Source: a virus (lineage: Duplodnaviria; Caudoviricetes). Taken from it: DNA of 64,000 bases. The stretch covers positions 6,474-70,473 of IMG/VR virus record IMGVR_UViG_3300020345_000381. One strand, 5' to 3'. A model generated the notes under the pieces. The model had not been told where the DNA came from, did no database searches, and saw only the letters and a list, made by a program, of their open reading frames with translations. Shown one piece after another: positions 2,871 to 42,145 of this stretch. A program made the position numbers and the translations under genes. The first letter of the stretch is position 1. Every line of letters starts with the position of its first letter.

Positions 2871-3164
2871 ATGAAACAATTATTATATATAAGCTTAATA
2901 GCTTTAATATGTTCTTGTTCTGGAAGCCAATTGTTTTTAGAAGCAAGAACTACTTATGATGTTCCATTAAATAATAATGGACATATAAATAAAACTATGA
3001 TGGAATCTGATGCTAAAAACGTATCTGGGCTAGATCAGTTCAATCCTCAGATTAGAGTAACATATAGACAATATTTATTTGATGGTAAAAAAAATCAAAT
3101 AAAAAATATAGTTAAAAAACAAATTACAAATCAAACACTTGAATTAAAAAAGTTTAGAAAATAA
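2871..3164 (+). CDS. predicted lipoprotein
   Basis: MKQLLYISLIALIC-SCSGS signal peptide/lipobox; TAATG overlap with nrdB. Confidence 0.6.
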   Translation: MKQLLYISLIALICSCSGSQLFLEARTTYDVPLNNNGHINKTMMESDAKNVSGLDQFNPQIRVTYRQYLFDGKKNQIKNIVKKQITNQTLELKKFRK

Positions 3165-4132
3165 TGGGTTTATTTGATGAAAGAATTCCTTACAAACCTT
3201 TTGAATATCCAGAATATTATAATGAAGGTTGGCTTAAACAAGCACAAGCATTTTGGCTTCATACAGAAATACCAATGTCTAGTGATGTTAAGGATTGGAA
3301 TGAAAAATTAACTAAAGAAGAGAAGAACCTAGTAGGTAATATCTTACTAGGTTTTGCTCAGACAGAATGTGCAGTATCAGATTATTGGACACAAAAAGTA
3401 GTATCTTGGTTTCCAAAACATGAGATACAACAAATGGCTATGATATTTGGGTCACAAGAAACCATACATGCAGTAGCTTATTCATATTTAAATGAAACTC
3501 TTGGTTTGGAAAATTTTGAAGCGTTTTTACAAGACAAGGCAACAATGGAACGCTTTGATAATTTAATTAGTTATGACGGAAATAACACCACTGGAATTGC
3601 AAGAAGCATTGCCATCTTTAGCGCATTTGCTGAAGGTGTTAGTCTTTATTCTGCCTTTGCTGTTTTATATAGTTTTCAACTCAGAAATCTTTTAAAAGGA
3701 GTAGGGCAACAAATGAAATGGAGTGTAAGAGATGAATCTCTTCATTCTAAAATGGGATGTCAACTCTTCAGACATATGTGTGAAGAAGATCCTAAGTTGT
3801 TAAACAAATCTAAAAAAGATATATTTGATGCAGCAGAAACAATGCTTGAAGCCGAAGAAAAGTACATTGATAAAATGTTCGAGCTCGGTGATATCGAAAA
3901 CCTTAAAGCTTACGACCTTAAACAATTTATCCGTAAAAGACTCAACGAAAAAATTATTGAACTCGGTTACACAAACAAACGGGAATACTTTGAGTTTGAC
4001 AAAGACGCAGCAAAAAATCTTGACTGGTTCTACCATCTTACCGGGGGGCATACTCATACTGATTTTTTTGCTATTCGTCCTACTGATTACTCGAAAGCTA
4101 ATGAAGGTGAAGATTTTGAAGATATTTGGTAA
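3164..4132 (+). CDS. nrdB: ribonucleotide reductase class I beta subunit
   Basis: FWLHTE, QTE, QETIHAVAY (E/H ligands and radical Tyr), AEGVSLYSAF, RDESLH, DFFAIRP. Confidence 0.95.
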   Translation: MGLFDERIPYKPFEYPEYYNEGWLKQAQAFWLHTEIPMSSDVKDWNEKLTKEEKNLVGNILLGFAQTECAVSDYWTQKVVSWFPKHEIQQMAMIFGSQETIHAVAYSYLNETLGLENFEAFLQDKATMERFDNLISYDGNNTTGIARSIAIFSAFAEGVSLYSAFAVLYSFQLRNLLKGVGQQMKWSVRDESLHSKMGCQLFRHMCEEDPKLLNKSKKDIFDAAETMLEAEEKYIDKMFELGDIENLKAYDLKQFIRKRLNEKIIELGYTNKREYFEFDKDAAKNLDWFYHLTGGHTHTDFFAIRPTDYSKANEGEDFEDIW

Positions 4133-4136
4133 ATGA
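3828..4136 (+). CDS. putative overprinted +1-frame ORF in the nrdB 3' end, with a C-terminal transmembrane segment
   Basis: 102-codon ORF; nrdB avoids TTA/ATA throughout the overlap; ends GILILIFLLFVLLI-TRKLMKVK; ATGA overlap with the next gene. Confidence 0.5.
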   Translation: MQQKQCLKPKKSTLIKCSSSVISKTLKLTTLNNLSVKDSTKKLLNSVTQTNGNTLSLTKTQQKILTGSTILPGGILILIFLLFVLLITRKLMKVKILKIFGK

Positions 4137-4438
4137 AATTCTTATGCACTGCTTGTGGAGCCTGTTGTATGACTGCAGGTAAATTAAAATTAATGCCAGA
4201 CAGAGGAGATGGTGCTTGTATAAATTTAAATGATTTAAATTTGTGTAATATTTATGATGCAAGACCAGAATTTTGTAGTATTACTGATATGTATTATAAC
4301 TATAATTTAGAAGAAGAAGAAAATATAACTTTAAAAGAATGGTATATTAAAAACACAAAAGATTGTCATACTTTGATTGATCATTATAAATTAGATGATA
4401 AATATAAAGTAGACACCGAAGAATATGAGAACATGTAA
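4133..4438 (+). CDS. YkgJ-family cysteine cluster (Fe-S/Zn) protein
   Basis: CTACGACC...GDGACINL...LCNIYDARPEFC pattern. Confidence 0.8.
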   Translation: MKFLCTACGACCMTAGKLKLMPDRGDGACINLNDLNLCNIYDARPEFCSITDMYYNYNLEEEENITLKEWYIKNTKDCHTLIDHYKLDDKYKVDTEEYENM

Positions 4439-4781
4439 CATTTGCGGCAGACCAAAAAAAGATTCAAAGTTTAAACACATAAATAAAAAAACGTGTAAAC
4501 GCTGTGAGTTTAGATGGAAAAGATCTTTTTTAAGATTATTAGTTCATGATAGAAGACTTAGTGCTAAAGAAAGAATAGCTAATAGACTTGGATATTTTGG
4601 AACTGCTTTTATAATGATTAGTCCTTATTTGTTACCATATGGAAACATAGGCGCAATTACATATGTTATTGGGGGTATTGTGTGTATTCCTCAAGTATGG
4701 GTTGCTAAACAATGGAATTTAGTTTTAGTTAATTTAAATGTAACAATTGGTTACTTAATTTATTTATTATATAATGGATGA
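4425..4781 (+). CDS. Zn-finger plus small multi-pass membrane protein
   Basis: CxxC...CxxC N-terminus followed by about three hydrophobic helices with a PQ motif. Confidence 0.6.
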   Translation: MRTCNICGRPKKDSKFKHINKKTCKRCEFRWKRSFLRLLVHDRRLSAKERIANRLGYFGTAFIMISPYLLPYGNIGAITYVIGGIVCIPQVWVAKQWNLVLVNLNVTIGYLIYLLYNG

Positions 4782-5222: not shown

Positions 5223-5581
5223 AAAAAATTATATTAAGTATATTTACATTATTATCTTTTGAATTATATTCTCAAAATTTAGAAGATTTTGAAGGATTAT
5301 GGACAAGTGGAGGAACTAATTTCGTAACCGTATTTGCTCATAATGACATAGAAGACTCGTTGTCTGTTTATACATTTAGTTTTGTGAGTAATCATATTGT
5401 AAACGAAACTATAACCAAAACAAACGATACATTAGTTTCCACTAAAACTTTTAATCAGAAAAACGGATGGACTGTAACAACAGATTATAAACTTTTAAAT
5501 AAAAATACAATGTTAGCATCTTTTCAAGGAGATATAGATGTAAAACTTTTATTTTATAAAGCTAAATTTAATGTGGAATAA
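5219..5581 (+). CDS. secreted beta-rich protein with signal peptide
   Basis: MKKIILSIFTLLSFELYSQ signal peptide followed by a beta-strand pattern (GLWTS...). Confidence 0.6.
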   Translation: MKKIILSIFTLLSFELYSQNLEDFEGLWTSGGTNFVTVFAHNDIEDSLSVYTFSFVSNHIVNETITKTNDTLVSTKTFNQKNGWTVTTDYKLLNKNTMLASFQGDIDVKLLFYKAKFNVE

Positions 5582-7289
5582 CGATTGGGTAAAAGGAAAA
5601 GATTATCCTTCTTGGGGTAATAACGATATATATAAACAAACTATAACTGGAGGTTATTTATTACCTACAGAAACTCCTCGTGAGGCTTATCAAAGAGTAG
5701 CTAAAACAGTTGCAAAACGTTTATATAAACCCGAATTATCAGAAAGGTTTTTTGAATATATTTGGAATGGTTGGCTTTGTTTAGCTTCTCCAGTTTTATC
5801 TAATACTGGCACAGATAGAGGTTTACCCATAAGTTGTTTTGGAATTGATGTAGCTGATAGTATTAATGATATAGGCCAAAAGAATTTAGAAATGATGATG
5901 CTTGCTAAACACGGAGGAGGAGTAGGTATTGGTGTTAATATGATTCGTCCTGCTGGAGCTAAAATAACTGGTAATGGTACATCAGATGGTGTGGTACCAT
6001 TCTGTAAAATTTATGATTCTACTATACTAGCAACTAATCAAGGAAGTGTTAGACGAGGAGCAGCTTCAGTTAATATAAATATAGAACATAAAGATTTTTT
6101 AGATTGGTTAGAAATAAGAGAACCTAAAGGTGATGTAAACAGACAATCACTTAATTTACATCAGTGTGCTGTAGTAGGAGATAAATTTATGAGAAGACTT
6201 GAGGCTGGTGATTCAGTATCACGAAATAAATGGAGTAAATTATTACAAAAAAGAAAAGCAACAGGAGAACCTTATATTTTATTTAAAGGTAATACTAATA
6301 AAGCCAATCCATCAGCGTATAAAGACAACGCTTTAAAAGTACATATGACAAACATATGTAGTGAAATTGTTTTACACACAGATGAATCTCACAGTTTTGT
6401 TTGTTGTTTATCTAGCTTAAATTTAGCTAAATACGAAGAATGGAAAAACACCAATATTATATATGATTCAATATGGTTTTTAGATGGAGTTTTAGAAGAA
6501 TTTATTCAAAAAGCTAAATATAGAAAAGGTTTTGAAAATTCTGTAAGATCTGCAGAAAAAGGTAGAGCATTAGGATTAGGAGTTTTAGGATGGCATACTT
6601 ATCTTCAAGAAAAAGGTTTACCTTTTGAAGGTTTGTTAGCTCAATTTGAAACAAGAAGAATATTTAGTCAAATAAAAATAGAATCTGAAAGAGCTAGTAT
6701 GGAATTAGCTGAAATATATGGAGAACCTTTATGGTGTAAAGGTACTGGAATGAGACACACTCATCTAAGAGCTATAGCACCAACGGTGAGTAATTCTAAA
6801 TTATCCGGTAATGTTTCACCAGGCATTGAACCTTGGGCAGCTAATGTATTTACTGAACAATCTGCTAAAGGAACTTTTATTAGAAAAAACCCTACATTAG
6901 TTAAAATATTAAGAAAACATAAATTAAATACAAATGAAATTTGGGATAAAATTTTGGCGGATGGTGGTTCAGTGCAAGCCATTGATGAACTTGATTCTGT
7001 GGTTCTTGCTAACGACATACCGGCTAAAGACGTTTTTAAAACGTTTAAAGAAATAAATCAACTTGAATTAATAAATCAAGCTGGCATACGACAACAATAT
7101 ATAGATCAATCAGTTAGTTTAAATTTAGCTTTTCCAGCAGAAGCTCCACCTAAATGGATAAATAAAGTTCATATAGATGCTTGGAAAAAAGGCGTTAAAA
7201 CACTTTATTATATGAGAACTGAGTCGGTATTAAGAGGTGATATTGCCGCTAATGCAATGGACCCAGGTTGTGTTAGCTGCGATGGATAA
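5571..7289 (+). CDS. nrdA: ribonucleotide reductase class I alpha subunit (no ATP cone)
   Basis: LPISCF, GGGVG, TNICSEI, VCCLSSLNL, IAPTVSNS, TLYYMR and C-terminal CVSC; only 572 aa. Confidence 0.95.
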   Translation: MWNNDWVKGKDYPSWGNNDIYKQTITGGYLLPTETPREAYQRVAKTVAKRLYKPELSERFFEYIWNGWLCLASPVLSNTGTDRGLPISCFGIDVADSINDIGQKNLEMMMLAKHGGGVGIGVNMIRPAGAKITGNGTSDGVVPFCKIYDSTILATNQGSVRRGAASVNINIEHKDFLDWLEIREPKGDVNRQSLNLHQCAVVGDKFMRRLEAGDSVSRNKWSKLLQKRKATGEPYILFKGNTNKANPSAYKDNALKVHMTNICSEIVLHTDESHSFVCCLSSLNLAKYEEWKNTNIIYDSIWFLDGVLEEFIQKAKYRKGFENSVRSAEKGRALGLGVLGWHTYLQEKGLPFEGLLAQFETRRIFSQIKIESERASMELAEIYGEPLWCKGTGMRHTHLRAIAPTVSNSKLSGNVSPGIEPWAANVFTEQSAKGTFIRKNPTLVKILRKHKLNTNEIWDKILADGGSVQAIDELDSVVLANDIPAKDVFKTFKEINQLELINQAGIRQQYIDQSVSLNLAFPAEAPPKWINKVHIDAWKKGVKTLYYMRTESVLRGDIAANAMDPGCVSCDG

Positions 7290-7369: not shown

Positions 7370-7723
7370 TTAATATGTCCACATTACATCGGGATCTTTA
7401 TCAGGATCCATATCTACATGTATAAAGGTATTTCCTATACCTATTCTAGTAAATCCTACATCTAATAAACAATTAAGAAGATCATATCTGTCTCTTGAGT
7501 TTATACAATGAATATCAACTGCTAAACCTTTAAGATGAGAGGAATTCTTTTTTCCCCCAACCTTTTTATTATGTTCTTTTGTTCGATAACCACTATTTAT
7601 GTGGATCGCTCTATCAAACTTAGATCGCACTAGATCTATTTTATCTAGCATTTCTTGTTTCATGTTTCTTCCACTACCCATTTCATCAGGTGAATCAAAC
7701 TCTGTAATATTAAAATATTGCAT
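7370..7723 (-). CDS. peptidase M15A endolysin
   Basis: INSGYR...HNKKVGG...SSHLKGLAVDI...FIHVD Zn-binding motifs. Confidence 0.9.
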   Translation of the reverse strand: MQYFNITEFDSPDEMGSGRNMKQEMLDKIDLVRSKFDRAIHINSGYRTKEHNKKVGGKKNSSHLKGLAVDIHCINSRDRYDLLNCLLDVGFTRIGIGNTFIHVDMDPDKDPDVMWTY

Positions 7724-7800
7724 TATCTGTATTTTTTAAACATTAGTTTATAAAGCAAAGCATTCCACGCTGCTTGTAGTTTATCTATAAATTTTTTCAT
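7723..7800 (-). CDS. 25-aa amphipathic basic peptide
   Basis: MKKFIDKLQAAWNALLYKLMFKKYR; starts 1 nt after the upstream stop and has a TAATG overlap with the endolysin. Confidence 0.6.
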   Translation of the reverse strand: MKKFIDKLQAAWNALLYKLMFKKYR

Positions 7801-7801
7801 A

Positions 7802-8224
7802 TTATTTACCTTTACATTTACAATTATTTTCTCCACAAGTGCACTGTTTATTTTTACTATAAAGAGTATCAAATGCGTTTGCACCTAATAGAGTTAGTTG
7901 ATCAATCATGTTAGTTTGTATTTTAATTAACATTTTTTCAAGCTCATCTTTTTGAGTTACTAAATGATCTACTTTAGAAGTTAAACCTTCGTTTTGTTTT
8001 TTAAGTTCATTTACTTCATCTGGATTTCTTCCGATTACAGTCATTATTACCACTGACAAAGACCCTACAATCATACCTATTATAGATACAACAACATCTT
8101 TATTCATGTTTGGTATTTCGTTATATGATAAGAAAACTAGTATACCTATTACTAATAAAAATATACCAATTGCCCCTACATAATGCCTTAATTCTTTTGC
8201 TACGCCGTTTGTTATTTTCATCAT
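7802..8224 (-). CDS. 2-TM membrane protein with coiled coil (holin or spanin-like candidate)
   Basis: Two hydrophobic helices, heptad region and Cys-rich tail; adjacent to the endolysin. Confidence 0.55.
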   Translation of the reverse strand: MMKITNGVAKELRHYVGAIGIFLLVIGILVFLSYNEIPNMNKDVVVSIIGMIVGSLSVVIMTVIGRNPDEVNELKKQNEGLTSKVDHLVTQKDELEKMLIKIQTNMIDQLTLLGANAFDTLYSKNKQCTCGENNCKCKGK

Positions 8225-34704: not shown

Positions 34705-36930
34705 CTAATTTAGAATTTTTGAATTTACTCCTTTATTATCATATTTTTTAAAACCTAAAGGCACCGATGTCAGTTTGCGTTCTGCTGTTGGCCTATATCT
34801 ATTTTTATTACATGCCATAATTGCTAAGCCTGAACTTATTGAGGCATCATGAAGTGTTCTGTTGTTTATATTAAATCTTGCCCAATCTTCTAAAGTGCGT
34901 TGAAAATATAAATCTCCATAATTTTCACCATTATATCCTATAAAATTTTCTATATAATCTTCTATAGCAGCTGCATGAGCTTGTTTGATATCTTCACTAG
35001 AGTTAGGTATACCACCTATTTCTCTTTCTGTTACTGATAATTTATTATAAATTTTATCTGGTCTATTCATAGAATATCCTCTATAACCTCTTCGTTTTAA
35101 ATAATATAATAATCTAGGTTTGTTATTTTCTGCAAGAAGTGGCATTCCATAAAATACTAATGCCATTAAAACATCTTCAAAAAAGATTTCAGCAGTTTGA
35201 GGTCTTGCTATATATTCTAAAAAAAAGCTATTAGGAGGAACATCCTCCATTGTAAATTTAGTTAAACCATGCAAAGAACCTTTTGAACCTCTACCATCTA
35301 CAGTTCCTGAAATATCATACGGATCACAACCAAAAGCACCACAATCAGTATTGGCAGGATATCGTATTCCATTTTTTATATTATACCTATTTTGTAAATT
35401 ATTAGGAGGAATCCACGAAATAAAAAATCTTCCATTATTATTAGGTATAAAAATAACTCTAGTATCTTTAATCCCATTTTCCCATTGAAAATTACCTTGA
35501 CTTATAATGTTTGTATTACGTAAATCTTCATTATAATCTATTTGTTCATATATTTTTGTAAGATTAAAAAGAGATTGTTTTGCTTCATCTCTAAAAGCGT
35601 GTTTTTCAGTTCGTGGGAATTGTCTATAAAATTCATTTAAACTGTCTTGATCTTCTTTTAAACCTTCAACTTCGTTTTCCCAGTGAGAGATAACCCCGAT
35701 ATTAATTTGTGATCCGTCAATCCCTTTAACGGCTTTTTTTGGAGTTTCGAATACAGGTATGCCATAAGTATTGATGTATCCTTCGTAGTTCCATTCCATA
35801 GGTATGAACAAACTATATAATCCTGTATTAGTCTGTCCATTGCGGTTTCTTTTTGTAACATCTGAAGCGTCATATAATTTTTTAAAGTTATCACCACCTT
35901 TGTCTAATGCATTTGATGTAGATCCCATCATACATTTTCCAACTATTCTACTCCCTAATCTTAACGTCGTTTTCGTGACTCTCCAGTTGTTGAGGATATT
36001 ATCCGGCCTCTCCCATTTCCCTGACTCGTCGTGCGCAAGGAGTTGTAACTTCTCCCCATCGTAGGAGTTGTCGCCGGTATTCTTCCAATCGATGGTTGTA
36101 TCCAACCCCTGGAGGTCTTCGATCTTACTATTCTGGTCCAATTTTTTTCTGGTAAGCTTCGAGGCAGGGACTCTATACGCGAGTTCCGTCTTGGGGCGGT
36201 CCATACCGTCCTGGATTGGTTTGAAAAAGAAGGGATAGTTAACTGATATTGGTACCACTTTGTCAGTAAACATCTTTTTCGCATCAGCTCCAGTTTTAGA
36301 TAATATTCCATATCGTGAATCTGAGGATATAGTGGCCTGGTGTACCAGTTCTGAGGATGCCATGAAAGAAAATCCCGATCGACGGTTCTTAAGGTAGCAC
36401 ATTCCATAACACCTAGTATCGGATTTACACGCTTCCCAAAAAATAAAGAAAAGTCTGTTGGACTCTCGAAACTCTGGTTTCCCAACATCAATCTTGGTCC
36501 ACTGCAAGTACATATAATGAGAACCAGTAATATAAGTGGGAATGCCTTTGTTATAAAACCAAAAGCCTTCTTCACGTCTTTTAAATTCTTCATCAATATA
36601 ATCATACCATTTATCTTTAAAATCAAGAGAAGTATTATTCCAATCAAAAACAGTTTTAAGTCTATCTAAAACTTTAGGATAATCAAATACTTCCCAATAT
36701 TGTTCTTCTTTTTTATTTCCTTTTTTATATACTTTTTCTTCTAGCGGTAAAGCAATTTTGAGACCTTGGATTTCATATATTTCCCCAATTTGGCCAGTTT
36801 TGCTGATAACCACGATATCATTTTCTTGATCGTACCCATATTTCCATTTTTTATATCTATTATTTCTTTTTATTATTTTTGGTTTAATATGATCAGATAA
36901 AATTTTATATAGAGTTTGTGTATATGTCAT
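34705..36930 (-). CDS. terL: terminase large subunit
   Basis: Walker A-like LKNRRSGFS, Walker B AHDESGK, MGST coupling motif, RuvC-like nuclease GCDPYD. Confidence 0.92.
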   Translation of the reverse strand: MTYTQTLYKILSDHIKPKIIKRNNRYKKWKYGYDQENDIVVISKTGQIGEIYEIQGLKIALPLEEKVYKKGNKKEEQYWEVFDYPKVLDRLKTVFDWNNTSLDFKDKWYDYIDEEFKRREEGFWFYNKGIPTYITGSHYMYLQWTKIDVGKPEFRESNRLFFIFWEACKSDTRCYGMCYLKNRRSGFSFMASSELVHQATISSDSRYGILSKTGADAKKMFTDKVVPISVNYPFFFKPIQDGMDRPKTELAYRVPASKLTRKKLDQNSKIEDLQGLDTTIDWKNTGDNSYDGEKLQLLAHDESGKWERPDNILNNWRVTKTTLRLGSRIVGKCMMGSTSNALDKGGDNFKKLYDASDVTKRNRNGQTNTGLYSLFIPMEWNYEGYINTYGIPVFETPKKAVKGIDGSQINIGVISHWENEVEGLKEDQDSLNEFYRQFPRTEKHAFRDEAKQSLFNLTKIYEQIDYNEDLRNTNIISQGNFQWENGIKDTRVIFIPNNNGRFFISWIPPNNLQNRYNIKNGIRYPANTDCGAFGCDPYDISGTVDGRGSKGSLHGLTKFTMEDVPPNSFFLEYIARPQTAEIFFEDVLMALVFYGMPLLAENNKPRLLYYLKRRGYRGYSMNRPDKIYNKLSVTEREIGGIPNSSEDIKQAHAAAIEDYIENFIGYNGENYGDLYFQRTLEDWARFNINNRTLHDASISSGLAIMACNKNRYRPTAERKLTSVPLGFKKYDNKGVNSKILN
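35658..35873 (-). CDS. second putative +1-frame ORF in terL (71 aa)
   Basis: Same +1 frame; C-ending synonymous codons enriched in terL over this stretch. Confidence 0.4.
   Translation of the reverse strand: MTLQMLQKETAMDRLIQDYIVCSYLWNGTTKDTSILMAYLYSKLQKKPLKGLTDHKLISGLSLTGKTKLKV
35961..36593 (-). CDS. overprinted +1-frame ORF in terL (210 aa from ATG 36593; frame open to 36647), possible lipoprotein
   Basis: 228 stop-free codons; terL GC3 about 66% at 36001-36240 versus about 15% in a downstream sample. Confidence 0.6.
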   Translation of the reverse strand: MKNLKDVKKAFGFITKAFPLILLVLIICTCSGPRLMLGNQSFESPTDFSLFFGKRVNPILGVMECATLRTVDRDFLSWHPQNWYTRPLYPQIHDMEYYLKLELMRKRCLLTKWYQYQLTIPSFSNQSRTVWTAPRRNSRIESLPRSLPEKNWTRIVRSKTSRGWIQPSIGRIPATTPTMGRSYNSLRTTSQGNGRGRIISSTTGESRKRR

Positions 36931-41421: not shown

Positions 41422-41748
41422 TTAATCTCTAATTTTATATTTTGTTCCGTCTGGATTAGTTCCTACTTGTTTTTTCTTAAGATCTTTTCTCCAATCACCG
41501 TTTTCGTGTAAAGGCGAATGATGTTTTTTATCATATTTCATATCTCCGGCTAATTTAGATATATGTTTTTCATCAGCCGTCATATCTATATCACTATGTC
41601 CATGTTTGTCATCCCAAAGAATATCTCTTTTCAGATAGTCTATATGCGCTGCATCATCTCTTTCGGCGGCATGAACGTTATGTTTTGTTACCGGTGTACG
41701 AGAATGTCTAGCATTACCAGAATATTCTCCAAAATGTCCTTTTTCCAT
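41422..41748 (-). CDS. His/Asp/Lys-rich hypothetical protein
   Basis: ORF track. Confidence 0.6.
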   Translation of the reverse strand: MEKGHFGEYSGNARHSRTPVTKHNVHAAERDDAAHIDYLKRDILWDDKHGHSDIDMTADEKHISKLAGDMKYDKKHHSPLHENGDWRKDLKKKQVGTNPDGTKYKIRD

Positions 41749-41771
41749 AGTTATTTCTTTATTATTATTTA

Positions 41772-41918
41772 TTACTTCTTTTCTTTAAGTTTTACCCATT
41801 TAGATACTGTATATCCAATAGTTACGAGCAAAAGTATAATTTTAAGCCATACTTCTATATCCGTCATAGAAATAGCTAATGCTAACGCATTTATCAATAG
41901 TAACTTTACGTCTGGCAT
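41772..41918 (-). CDS. 48-aa 2-TM holin-like membrane protein
   Basis: MPDVKLLLINALALAISMTDIEVWLKIILLLVTIGYTVSKWVKLKEKK: two hydrophobic helices and a basic tail. Confidence 0.6.
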   Translation of the reverse strand: MPDVKLLLINALALAISMTDIEVWLKIILLLVTIGYTVSKWVKLKEKK

Positions 41919-41923
41919 TATTA

Positions 41924-42145
41924 TTAAAATTTACCTTGGGCAATTGCTGTAATTGGGTATTTTACTTGCATATCAACTTTAGAATTAGGATATTTAGATA
42001 CTTGCATACCTTTAATCCCAGAACTAGATCCTACTTGATGAATCCTTCCAACTTGATTTAATGGACCATCCCATATATGAGATTCTCCTACAATACCTAT
42101 TTTTTTATTTCTACTTGCTTTATTATATGCTTTATCGTCGTGCAT
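41924..42145 (-). CDS. hypothetical protein
   Basis: ORF track. Confidence 0.6.
   Translation of the reverse strand: MHDDKAYNKASRNKKIGIVGESHIWDGPLNQVGRIHQVGSSSGIKGMQVSKYPNSKVDMQVKYPITAIAQGKF

What the first reader, a model, noticed from the sequence alone, without database searches (positions are those of the whole stretch)
3828..4136. Nested C-terminally anchored membrane protein in nrdB
Seen: over the last ~100 nrdB codons all 8 Leu codons are CTT/CTC and all 7 Ile codons are ATT/ATC. TTA and ATA, which are common in this genome and create +1 stops before a purine, are never used. The +1 product ends GILILIFLLFVLLITRKLMKVKILKIFGK (TM plus basic tail), and its TGA overlaps the ATG of the Fe-S protein gene. 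Inference: a tail-anchored membrane protein co-expressed with RNR.
Basis: partly seen in the sequence, partly recalled or inferred. Interest (0 to 1): 0.7.

Follow-up and report, generated by a model that had tools for sequence, protein, structure and literature searches.

The report
Hidden second gene inside phage nrdB
The last third of this marine phage's ribonucleotide reductase small-subunit gene carries a second reading frame that related phages have kept free of stop codons, so it very probably encodes a lineage-specific small protein with one hydrophobic helix.

Summary
In nrdB (3164-4132) the +1 frame is stop-free for 110 codons, from ATG 3828 to TGA 4136. Resampling nrdB with the window's codon usage never reached this (0/5000).

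The main evidence comes from 130 distinct nrdB relatives in IMG/VR, whose synonymous sites are close to saturation.
- Type A is a single clade of 69 that includes the window. All 69 keep about 93-135 +1 codons open. A tree-aware neutral simulation keeps 19.5±9.6 open.
- Type B (54) has normal stop density in codons 229-260, is open from about 253-261, and has ATG at codon 261 in 53/54.
- Type C (7) and Cellulophaga phage phi14:2 lack the frame.

In type A, NTA codons before a purine are 0/790, against 30-52% in the 5' part. Codons that would stop only the antisense frame are not avoided.

Four rare-codon third positions (codons 269, 271, 273, 275) are fixed while NrdB varies there. In +1 they read T-x-T-x-G-x-T-L.

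No homologue exists outside nrdB.

My reading is an overprinted accessory gene (about 0.7). The membrane-anchor idea is plausible but not shown: both flanks are strongly basic, and hydrophobicity and charge are partly automatic by-products of the NrdB sequence. There is no expression evidence, and function is unknown.

The parts
3164..4132 (+). nrdB, the host gene of the overlap: class I ribonucleotide reductase small subunit, 322 aa
   Evidence: ORF list. Pfam PF00268, E 3.9e-57. 130 distinct relatives at 82-98% aa identity.
3801..3803 (+). Last +1-frame stop (TAA) upstream of the nested ORF, at nrdB codon 213
   Evidence: Read from the sequence. The stop-free run of 110 codons starts at 3804. 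In most type A relatives the run starts at codon 214, 222 or 229, within 0-8 codons of the first ATG.
3828..4136 (+). Nested +1 ORF: 102 codons from ATG 3828 plus TGA (TTG at 3825 is an alternative start). Candidate overprinted gene.
   Evidence: Open in 69/69 type A relatives against 19.5±9.6 in a tree-aware neutral simulation. NTA before a purine is 0/790 in type A.
3945..3947 (+). Position of the short-form start (nrdB codon 261). It is ACG in this window and ATG in 53/54 type B relatives.
   Evidence: Many database proteins start exactly here.
3969..3992 (+). +1 motif T-x-T-x-G-x-T-L, overlapping nrdB codons 269-276
   Evidence: Third positions of codons 269, 271, 273 and 275 are the only non-Met columns of the whole gene with G/C in at least 90% of type A. 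NrdB varies there (D/N/H, G/R, Y/H/N) while the +1 residues are invariant. No conserved RNA structure was found.
4032..4088 (+). Hydrophobic helix of the +1 product (residues 69-87), overlapping the conserved NrdB stretch YHLTGGHTHTDFFAIRPTD
   Evidence: KD19 of 2.94. AF2 helix with pLDDT 80-87. Thr297 and Thr299 are ACT in 70-74 of 77 and ACA in at most 1, although ACA is 53% in the 5' part. Hydrophobicity exceeds stop-free resampling.
4089..4136 (+). Basic C-terminal tail (net +6) and TGA stop overlapping ATG 4133 of the next gene
   Evidence: In some relatives Met313 plus this tail form the n-region of a downstream lipoprotein signal peptide.
4133..4438 (+). Downstream CxxCxxCC (putative Zn/Fe-chelating) protein gene. 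It is a neighbour, not part of the nested gene.
   Evidence: Pfam PF03692, E 1.4e-5.

Best explanation
Window 3828-4136 is a real protein-coding gene overprinted in the +1 frame on the last third of nrdB. The phage is an uncultured marine podovirus-like phage, probably of Flavobacteriia.

Proposed mechanism, with shown and inferred steps marked:
- The nested gene is transcribed as part of the nrdB mRNA (inferred).
- It is translated from an internal ATG (inferred from comparative data). The start is codon 222 here, codons 214-229 in other type A genomes, and codon 261 in the short type B form.
- The product is a lineage-restricted, very basic protein of about 100 aa (about 62-70 aa in type B). 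It has a conserved T-x-T-x-G-x-T-L motif and one C-terminal hydrophobic helix.
- The helix most likely associates the protein with the cytoplasmic membrane (inferred).
- Like most overprinted viral genes, it is probably an accessory factor acting at the host envelope rather than a component of ribonucleotide reduction (weak inference).

The +1 frame is absent from the most distant relative examined, and no homologue exists outside nrdB. The gene therefore arose de novo inside nrdB. A short form and a long form exist. Which came first is unresolved.
For: 1. Chance is excluded for this window. 0/5000 codon resamplings reach 110 open codons.

2. The frame is conserved despite near-saturated synonymous sites (mean pS 0.67 in the 5' part and 0.60 in the 3' part).
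- Among 130 distinct nrdB sequences, 69 form one clade (type A, support 92) and all keep at least 93 open +1 codons.
- A neutral synonymous simulation was run on their tree, started from an open root and rate-matched to the observed mismatch. It leaves 19.5±9.6 open, maximum 44 in 250 runs.

3. There is a natural control. With the 5' codon usage of the same genes, codons 229-260 should carry 3.5-3.8 stops. Type B carries 3.73. Type A carries 0.12.

4. The avoidance is specific to the +1 frame.
- In type A codons 229-321, NTA before a purine is 0/790, against 0.30-0.52 in the 5' part.
- Leu TTA/CTA before a pyrimidine is 28/37 and Ser TCA is 0.26, so the antisense frame is not protected.
- The +2 frame keeps 7-10 stops per 53 codons.

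5. Start codons sit at the edge of the open run.
- The first ATG lies within 8 codons of the last stop in 68/69 type A and 52/54 type B, against 40% in the control. It directly follows the stop in 22 type A sequences.
- ATG at codon 261 occurs in 53/54 type B and 52/69 type A.

6. There is constraint on the product.
- The only non-Met columns of the gene with rare G/C-ending codons fixed in type A are 269, 271, 273 and 275.
- NrdB varies there while the +1 frame reads an invariant T, T, G, T.
- No RNA structure explains this.
- Thr297 and Thr299 avoid ACA, which keeps Leu in the helix.
- Hydrophobicity is 2.6 against 1.75±0.56 for stop-free resampling. Type C is at 1.82.

7. De novo origin.
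- There are no Pfam or PHROG hits.
- A profile search of 1.84 billion representatives gave 40 hits, and the ten whose sequences I read all contain the nrdB-3' +1 sequence.
- Phage phi14:2 nrdB (52% aa identity) has many +1 stops.

8. A review of viral overprinting reports that such genes have restricted distribution, encode accessory proteins, and evolve fast under weak constraint when young (PMC8227390).

9. A second long nested +1 ORF, in terL, is also kept in 60/80 relatives.
Against: - There is no expression evidence of any kind.
- Synonymous divergence in the overlap is barely lower than in the 5' part (pS 0.60 against 0.67).
- An OLGenie-like dNN/dNS for the +1 frame is 0.65 in the overlap and 0.64 in the 5' control. 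There is thus no general purifying selection on the +1 residues. Constraint is confined to openness, a few motif sites and hydrophobicity.
- The context of ATG 3828 scores -3.7. True starts in the window have a median of 3.0, and 36% of random ATGs score as high.
- For the short core alone (codons 261-322), phylogenetic inertia explains much. The simulation keeps 88±27 of 130 open, with a maximum of 123, which equals the observed count.
- Seven relatives (type C) have lost the frame.
- The fixed p2p3 dinucleotides of the motif would also be silent-wobble-compatible in the direct antisense frame (V-x-P-x-V-x-V). That frame carries stops in many relatives, including inside the motif in 5 type A sequences.
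- AF2 confidence is low outside the helix (mean pLDDT 57.5).
- Both flanks of the helix are strongly basic, so membrane topology is unclear.
Confidence: 0.7

Rival explanations
1. There is no gene. The open frame is a by-product of a locally different codon usage in the 3' third of nrdB, for example a recombined segment from a donor that prefers CTY/ATY/TAC codons, inherited by descent.
For: - Local permutation of codons gives an open frame 44% of the time in the window and 37.5% on average in type A.
- nrdB is recombinant. Type B sequences are scattered in the 5' tree but cluster in the 3' tree.
- C-ending Tyr, Asp and Asn codons are also enriched.
- For codons 261-322 alone, inertia from an open ancestor keeps 88±27 of 130 tips open.
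Against: - Synonymous sites are near saturation, so a donor's codon bias should have decayed. CTT and CTC flip freely at at-risk Leu columns but never reach TTA or CTA.
- The avoidance depends on context: 0/790 before purines against 28/37 for Leu before pyrimidines.
- 64/66 sequences were open against 37.5% expected even under local permutation.
- The tree-aware simulation gives 19.5 of 69 against 69 observed.
- ATGs sit at the edge of the open run.
- Rare codons are fixed at four alternating positions.
Confidence: 0.1
2. The +1 frame is reached by ribosomal frameshifting or transcriptional slippage from the nrdB frame. This would give a trans-frame NrdB with its NrdA-binding tail replaced by a hydrophobic, basic tail.
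For: - A-runs lie in the overlap (for example GAAAAAAT at codons 262-264).
- Databases hold proteins that begin in the NrdB frame and continue in +1 (P0004, P0006, P0007, P0014, P0032).
- The poor start context of ATG 3828 would not matter under this model.
Against: - The one chimera traced to DNA lies on a 4x long-read contig riddled with frameshifts (L163). The chimeras switch frame at different places, as sequencing errors would.
- The A-runs are only 5-6 long.
- In 22 type A sequences a +1 stop directly precedes the first ATG. In 68/69 the ATG lies within 8 codons of that stop. This fits initiation, not entry from upstream.
- ATG 261 is nearly invariant only in the short form.
Confidence: 0.07
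3. Only the act of translating the +1 frame matters, for example to couple or tune translation of the downstream gene through the ATGA overlap. The peptide itself would have no function.
For: - The +1 TGA overlaps the downstream ATG in the window and about ten relatives.
- General amino-acid constraint on the +1 product is weak.
Against: - nrdB's own TAA already abuts the downstream ATG, so coupling needs no second frame.
- In relatives the +1 stop lies anywhere from 1 to more than 200 nt past nrdB and in front of different genes.
- The fixed T-x-T-x-G-x-T-L codons and the excess hydrophobicity point to selection on the product.
Confidence: 0.06
4. The selected frame is the direct antisense frame (window ORF 4057..3800, 85 aa), not +1.
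For: - Avoiding TTA and CTA also removes antisense TAA and TAG.
- The window has an 85-codon antisense ORF.
- Antisense stops are fewer in the 3' part.
- The fixed p2p3 dinucleotides at codons 269-275 would read Val/Pro with free wobble in that frame.
Against: - Codons that stop only the antisense frame are not avoided. Ser TCA is 0.26 and Leu TTA/CTA before pyrimidines is 28/37.
- The antisense run ends at codon 265 in 23 type A sequences and has stops inside the motif in 5.
- Avoidance of ATA and GTA before purines (0/304 in type A) has no antisense meaning.
Confidence: 0.03

Closest known systems
phiX174 gene E (lysis protein embedded in gene D) and other Microviridae overprinted genes
   Same: Both are small proteins (91 aa against about 100 aa) encoded entirely inside an essential gene on the same strand in the +1 frame. 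Both have one hydrophobic helix and a basic remainder, and both arose de novo. This comparison rests on established knowledge and on references in PMC8227390.
   Different: E has its transmembrane helix at the N-terminus and is the phage's only lysis function. This phage is a 70-kb dsDNA phage with its own lysis cassette at about 7370-8224 (earlier scan note). Its helix is C-terminal. There is no sequence similarity.
Levivirus L-type lysis proteins (MS2 L)
   Same: The architecture is similar: a basic, polar N-terminal half followed by a hydrophobic C-terminal half. L is encoded in the +1 frame across other genes (my own knowledge, not tested here).
   Different: L overlaps two genes in an RNA phage. 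The L-family layout with its Leu-Ser motif after the hydrophobic domain was not tested and is not evident here. A lysis role is unlikely in a phage that has an endolysin.
Lambda Rz1 embedded in Rz (o-spanin within i-spanin)
   Same: Rz1 is a nested +1 gene in a dsDNA phage that encodes an envelope-targeted small protein. In several relatives the same +1 frame at the nrdB 3' end supplies Met313 and the n-region of a small Cys-rich lipoprotein.
   Different: The window's product has no lipobox and no signal peptide. The host gene is a metabolic enzyme, not a functional partner. It is not located in the lysis cassette.
Overprinted accessory genes of viruses in general (Rancurel, Sabath, Pavesi data sets)
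   Same: The shared features are restricted phylogenetic distribution, unusual composition, fast evolution with weak purifying selection, and distorted codon usage in the host gene (PMC8227390).
   Different: Those sets come mostly from small eukaryotic RNA and DNA viruses with experimental proof. Here the genome is a 70-kb phage genome and only comparative evidence is available.

Membership tests
Overprinted (same-strand, +1) protein-coding gene | Alternative-frame ORF longer than expected from the host protein sequence and the genome's codon usage | tested here: met
   110 open codons. 0/5000 resamplings with window usage reach this, and P = 0.0026 with nrdB's own usage.
Overprinted (same-strand, +1) protein-coding gene | ORF kept open in diverged relatives beyond phylogenetic inertia, and specifically in that frame | tested here: met
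   69/69 type A sequences are open against 19.5±9.6 simulated. NTA before a purine is 0/790, while +2 and antisense stops persist. Type B matches the null in codons 229-260. The short core alone is weaker, at 123/130 against 88±27.
Overprinted (same-strand, +1) protein-coding gene | Start codon present and positioned at the 5' edge of the open run | tested here: met
   The first ATG lies within 8 codons of the last stop in 68/69 type A and 52/54 type B, against 40% in the control. ATG 261 is present in 53/54 type B. However, the sequence context of ATG 3828 is not start-like.
Overprinted (same-strand, +1) protein-coding gene | Purifying selection on the alternative-frame amino acids, seen as reduced synonymous rate in the host gene or dN/dS below 1 in the alternative frame | tested here: inconclusive
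   pS is 0.60 in the overlap against 0.67 in the 5' part. dNN/dNS is 0.65 against 0.64 in the control. Four rare-codon third positions are fixed and hydrophobicity is raised.
Overprinted (same-strand, +1) protein-coding gene | Direct evidence of translation (Ribo-seq, mass spectrometry, tagged product) | not testable with these tools
There is no cultured relative with NrdB above 55% aa identity.
Tail-anchored membrane protein | Single hydrophobic transmembrane segment within about 30 residues of the C-terminus, and no N-terminal signal sequence | tested here: met
   KD19 maximum of 2.94 at residues 69-87 of 102. The N-terminal 68 residues are polar. AF2 predicts a helix with pLDDT 80-87.
Tail-anchored membrane protein | Short, weakly charged C-terminal tail that can cross the membrane, with the cytosolic side more positive | tested here: not met
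   The 15-residue tail has net +6, and the N-terminal part has net +11. The tail's charge is dictated by NrdB's acidic C-terminus.
Tail-anchored membrane protein | Demonstrated membrane insertion | not testable with these tools
   This needs fractionation or reporter fusions.
Embedded o-spanin / lipoprotein (Rz1-like) | Signal peptide ending in a lipobox Cys | tested here: not met
   The window product has no Cys after the hydrophobic segment. Some relatives do run on in this frame into a lipoprotein with an LSC-type lipobox.
Programmed frameshift product of nrdB | Conserved slippery site, with the open frame needed only downstream of it and no need for its own start | tested here: not met
   The A-runs are at most 6 long. 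ATGs sit at the edge of the open run. The one database chimera traced to DNA lies on an error-rich contig.

The most novel reading that the evidence does not exclude
The nrdB overlap preserves two stages of a de novo gene. One is a proto-gene of about 62-70 aa starting at codon 261 (type B). The other is a form of about 95-135 aa (type A) in which about six stop-making NTA codons across codons 229-260 are replaced, and which is kept in all 69 sampled descendants.

Together with the conserved 234-codon +1 ORF in terL, and possibly those in the scaffold gene, this would mean that these Flavobacteriia phages routinely build envelope-directed accessory proteins by overprinting essential genes. Shine-Dalgarno-independent initiation in Bacteroidota may make this easier.
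Probability: 0.3. Interest if true: 0.78.

Novelty: new member of a known kind. Interest (0 to 1): 0.62.

Why it matters
Nested genes are discarded by standard annotation of prokaryotic and phage genomes, and well-supported cases in large dsDNA phages are few.

This case has unusually clean comparative support, all within one abundant marine phage group:
- an internal control clade that behaves as the null model predicts;
- independent losses of the frame;
- two length variants.

That makes it a workable system for studying how a new protein is born inside an essential enzyme gene, and how the two frames share the sequence. NrdB's variable linker accommodates the new protein's conserved motif, while NrdB's conserved C-terminus dictates the new protein's helix and charge.

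There is also a practical point. nrdB is widely used as a phylogenetic and ecological marker for marine viruses. Its 3' third in this group does not evolve neutrally at synonymous sites, and the gene is recombinant.

Tried and rejected
- **OLGenie-like dNN/dNS and dSN/dSS for all five alternative frames.** The +1 ratio in the overlap equals that in the 5' control, so the test is uninformative here.
- **Pairwise pS, 5' against 3'.** There is no clear drop, and the sites are near saturation.
- **Local codon permutation as a test on the window alone.** It is circular.
- **Family searches.** Pfam and PHROGs and ESM Atlas feature search (best score 0.76, low recognition) gave no family.
- **AlphaFold2 with a 59-sequence alignment.** Mean pLDDT was 57.5. 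Only the C-terminal helix was confident, so I ran no fold search.
- **RNAalifold on codons 258-304.** The result was -1.8 kcal/mol with no covariation, so I rejected RNA structure as the cause of the fixed third positions.
- **Start-context weight matrix from 43 window genes.** ATG 3828 is not start-like.
- **TAnnTTTG motif.** A Bacteroidetes-type -7 motif sits at 3820-3827 but overlaps the ATG. I did not take it as a promoter.
- **Antisense-frame rival.** Rejected.
- **Frameshift chimeras in databases.** I traced one of the NrdB-to-+1 chimeras to its contig, which is error-rich. Three other proteins join unrelated sequence to the nrdB 3' part. I traced one of those to a short scaffold and did not trace the others.
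- **Cultured relatives.** None has NrdB above 55% aa identity. Phage phi14:2 lacks the frame.
Full report
**What is there**

The window is bases 6474-70473 of a 70,473-bp IMG/VR virus record that CheckV rates as complete. Its large terminase is closest to Flavobacterium 'elemo' podophages (46% aa) and to Cellulophaga, Tenacibaculum and Maribacter phages. It is therefore an uncultured marine phage, probably of Flavobacteriia.

nrdB lies at 3164-4132 (322 aa; Pfam Ribonuc_red_sm, E 4e-57). It sits in a nucleotide-metabolism block, with nrdA at 5571-7289.

In the +1 frame (nrdB positions 2, 3 and the next codon's position 1) there is no stop from 3804 to the TGA at 4134-4136, which is 110 codons. 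ATG 3828 opens a 102-codon ORF. Its TGA shares ATGA with the start of a CxxCxxCC gene.

**Check of the observation**

- Leu is 8/8 CTY and Ile is 7/7 ATY in the last 102 codons, against TTA 70% and ATA 51% in the window.
- Tyr is also 6/6 TAC (window 13%). This cannot be stop avoidance.
- Resampling synonymous codons for the NrdB protein with window usage never gave 110 open codons (0/5000; median 31, maximum 71). With nrdB's own usage P = 0.0026.
- Permuting only the local codons gives 0.44. That last test is circular, so relatives had to decide.

**Relatives**

Two scans of IMG/VR gave 160 loci, which reduce to 130 distinct nrdB sequences at 82-98% aa and about 75-99% nt identity. Synonymous sites are close to saturation, with mean pS 0.67 in codons 1-212 and 0.60 in codons 222-322.

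The sequences fall into three states.
- **Type A:** 69 sequences including the window, one clade in the 3'-region tree (support 92). The +1 frame is open for at least 93 codons.
- **Type B:** 54 sequences, open only from about codon 245-261.
- **Type C:** 7 sequences on 3-4 scattered long branches, with stops inside codons 261-322.

Cellulophaga phage phi14:2 (NrdB 52% aa) has many +1 stops. No cultured phage is closer than 55%. In the 5'-region tree the type B sequences are scattered, so nrdB is recombinant.

**Is the openness selected?**

I used the 5' codon usage of the same genes as the null model.

| Region | Group | Expected stops | Observed stops |
|---|---|---|---|
| Codons 229-260 | Type B | 3.50 | 3.73 |
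| Codons 229-260 | Type A | 3.83 | 0.12 |
| Codons 261-321 | Types A and B | about 3 | 0 |

Type B in codons 229-260 therefore calibrates the null.

Even under conservative within-region permutation, only 37.5% of type A sequences should be open, and 64/66 were.

To allow for inheritance, I simulated neutral synonymous evolution on the type A tree. The root was open and the rate was tuned to the observed synonymous mismatch. 19.5±9.6 of 69 tips stayed open, with a maximum of 44 in 250 runs. The observed count is 69.

The same test on the short core (codons 261-322, all 130 tips) is much weaker. It gave 88±27 open with a maximum of 123, which equals the observed 123. The core alone would not carry the case.

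**Frame specificity**

In type A codons 229-321, NTA codons before a purine (the +1 stop makers) are 0/790, against 0.30-0.52 in the 5' part. Leu TTA/CTA before a pyrimidine is 28/37 and Ser TCA is 0.26. The direct antisense frame is therefore not protected, and it has stops inside the motif region in 5 type A sequences. The +2 frame keeps 7-10 stops per 53 codons.

Type B shows no avoidance in codons 229-260 (0.55-0.62) and complete avoidance in 261-321 (0/213).

**Start codons**

- Every type A sequence has a +1 ATG between codons 214 and 229. A subset is open from about codon 185-189 and also has an ATG at codon 190.
- The first ATG lies within 8 codons of the last upstream stop in 68/69 type A and 52/54 type B, against 40% for stops in the 5' control. 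It directly follows the stop in 22 type A sequences.
- ATG at codon 261 is present in 53/54 type B but only 52/69 type A, which is the baseline AAT usage.
- Gene callers in public data often start proteins exactly at Met261.

These patterns fit internal initiation better than frameshifting. Against this, the sequence context of ATG 3828 is not like the window's true starts (score -3.7 against a median of 3.0). That context is itself constrained by NrdB.

**Constraint on the product**

General measures show none. pS is hardly reduced, and an OLGenie-like dNN/dNS is 0.65 in the overlap and 0.64 in the 5' control. Local signals are nevertheless sharp.

- In type A the only non-Met columns of the entire gene with G/C at the third position in at least 90% of sequences are codons 269 (TAC), 271 (xAC), 273 (xGG) and 275 (xAC).
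- NrdB varies there (D/N/H, G/R, Y/H/N) through first-position changes only, while the +1 frame reads invariant T, T, G, T followed by L.
- Under the calibrated neutral model a C-to-T change at such a site would be expected many times over the type A tree. This is my own arithmetic from the parameters and it gives about 18 changes per site.
- RNAalifold finds no structure.
- In the hydrophobic segment, Thr297 and Thr299 are ACT in 70-74 of 77 and ACA in at most 1, although ACA is 53% in the 5' part. This keeps Leu in +1.
- The maximal 19-residue hydropathy is 2.6 in types A and B, against 1.75±0.56 for stop-free resampling and 1.82 in type C.

**What the product looks like**

The product has 102 residues. 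The N-terminal 68 residues are polar and rich in K, T, S, N, Q and L, with net charge +11. A 19-residue segment with KD 2.94 follows, then a 15-residue tail with net +6. AlphaFold2 with 59 homologues gives low overall confidence (57.5) but a helix with pLDDT 80-87 over the hydrophobic part.

Much of this is automatic. T-ending NrdB codons give xTx (hydrophobic) codons in +1, and GAA/GAT of NrdB's acidic tail give AAx/ATx (Lys, Asn, Ile). The 'transmembrane helix plus basic tail' is therefore not independent evidence, and the doubly basic flanks leave topology open.

No family matches exist. A profile search of 1.84 billion representatives found 40 proteins. The ten whose sequences I read all carry the nrdB-3' +1 sequence. 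Some are read-throughs into downstream genes or chimeras, and the one NrdB-to-+1 chimera I traced lies on an error-rich contig.

**Interpretation**

The best explanation is an overprinted accessory gene, born inside nrdB and restricted to one group of marine phages, with a short and a long form. Midpoint rooting places type A inside a type B grade, which suggests 5' extension. Without a close outgroup, truncation in type B cannot be excluded.

Weak overall constraint, restricted distribution and distorted host-gene codon usage are what reviews describe for young overprinted viral genes (PMC8227390).

Function is not known. My best guess is a membrane-associated accessory factor acting at the host envelope. 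I base this on the helix and on the small lipoprotein genes that flank nrdB here (2871-3161) and in relatives. This is a weak inference.

The rivals (codon-usage or mosaic by-product, frameshift product, translation-only coupling, antisense frame) are each contradicted by specific results given under Rival explanations.

**Novelty and verdict**

Nested +1 genes for small membrane-active proteins are a known kind (phiX174 E, MS2 L, lambda Rz1). I found no report of one inside nrdB or in this phage group, and the protein has no relatives. I file it as a new member of a known kind.

- Confidence that it is a real coding gene: about 0.7.
- Confidence that it is membrane-anchored: about 0.5.
- Confidence in any specific function: low.

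Noticed in passing
window 34705-36930 (- strand, terL); nested run about 35961-36665: terL carries a 234-codon stop-free +1 run whose product contains a lipoprotein-like LILLVLIICTCSG. Among 80 IMG/VR TerL relatives (75-92% aa) the longest +1 run is at least 150 codons in 60 and at most 82 in most of the remaining 20. +2 runs stay short, at most about 43 codons in the 30 relatives listed. This looks like a second conserved nested gene in the same lineage.
   Followed up: partly
relatives L008, L013, L028, L047, L052, L063, L067, L068, L107, L136, L139 (just past the nrdB stop): In these genomes the +1 frame runs on past nrdB into a small Cys-rich lipoprotein. Its Met (nrdB codon 313) and n-region (MKxKILKIFGS) lie inside nrdB, followed by an LLLLLSC-type lipobox. 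In others (L083, L128; proteins P0018, P0028) the frame runs into a multi-pass membrane protein related to window 4425-4781.
   Followed up: partly
nrdB, 5' against 3' parts (window 3164-3800 against 3800-4132): Trees of the 5' two-thirds and the 3' third of nrdB disagree. Type B sequences are scattered in one and clustered in the other. nrdB is therefore recombinant within this phage group. This matters when nrdB is used as a marker gene.
   Followed up: partly
L162 (638-bp ENA scaffold); proteins P0009 and P0023: Three independent database sequences join unrelated sequence to nrdB at about codon 254-268. The unrelated parts are an unknown 5' segment, what looks to me like a dipeptidyl-peptidase-type N-terminus, and what looks to me like a 3-hydroxyacyl-CoA-dehydrogenase-type N-terminus. 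The result is read in the +1 frame. These are probably assembly chimeras at an A-rich stretch, but an insertion or intron site was not excluded.
   Followed up: partly
window 2871-3164 (+): The gene upstream of nrdB encodes a 97-aa protein with a lipoprotein-type signal (MKQLLYISLIALICSC...). Its TAA overlaps the nrdB ATG as TAATG.
   Followed up: no
window 41563-41952 (+) against 41422-41748 (-): A 129-codon ORF lies antisense to and partly overlapping a 108-codon ORF. It is the only other alternative-frame ORF of at least 100 codons in the window besides those in nrdB and terL.
   Followed up: no
window 3820-3827: TATATTTG matches the Bacteroidetes -7 promoter motif TAnnTTTG but directly abuts ATG 3828. 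It could not give an mRNA that includes that start, and is probably a chance match in AT-rich coding sequence.
   Followed up: no
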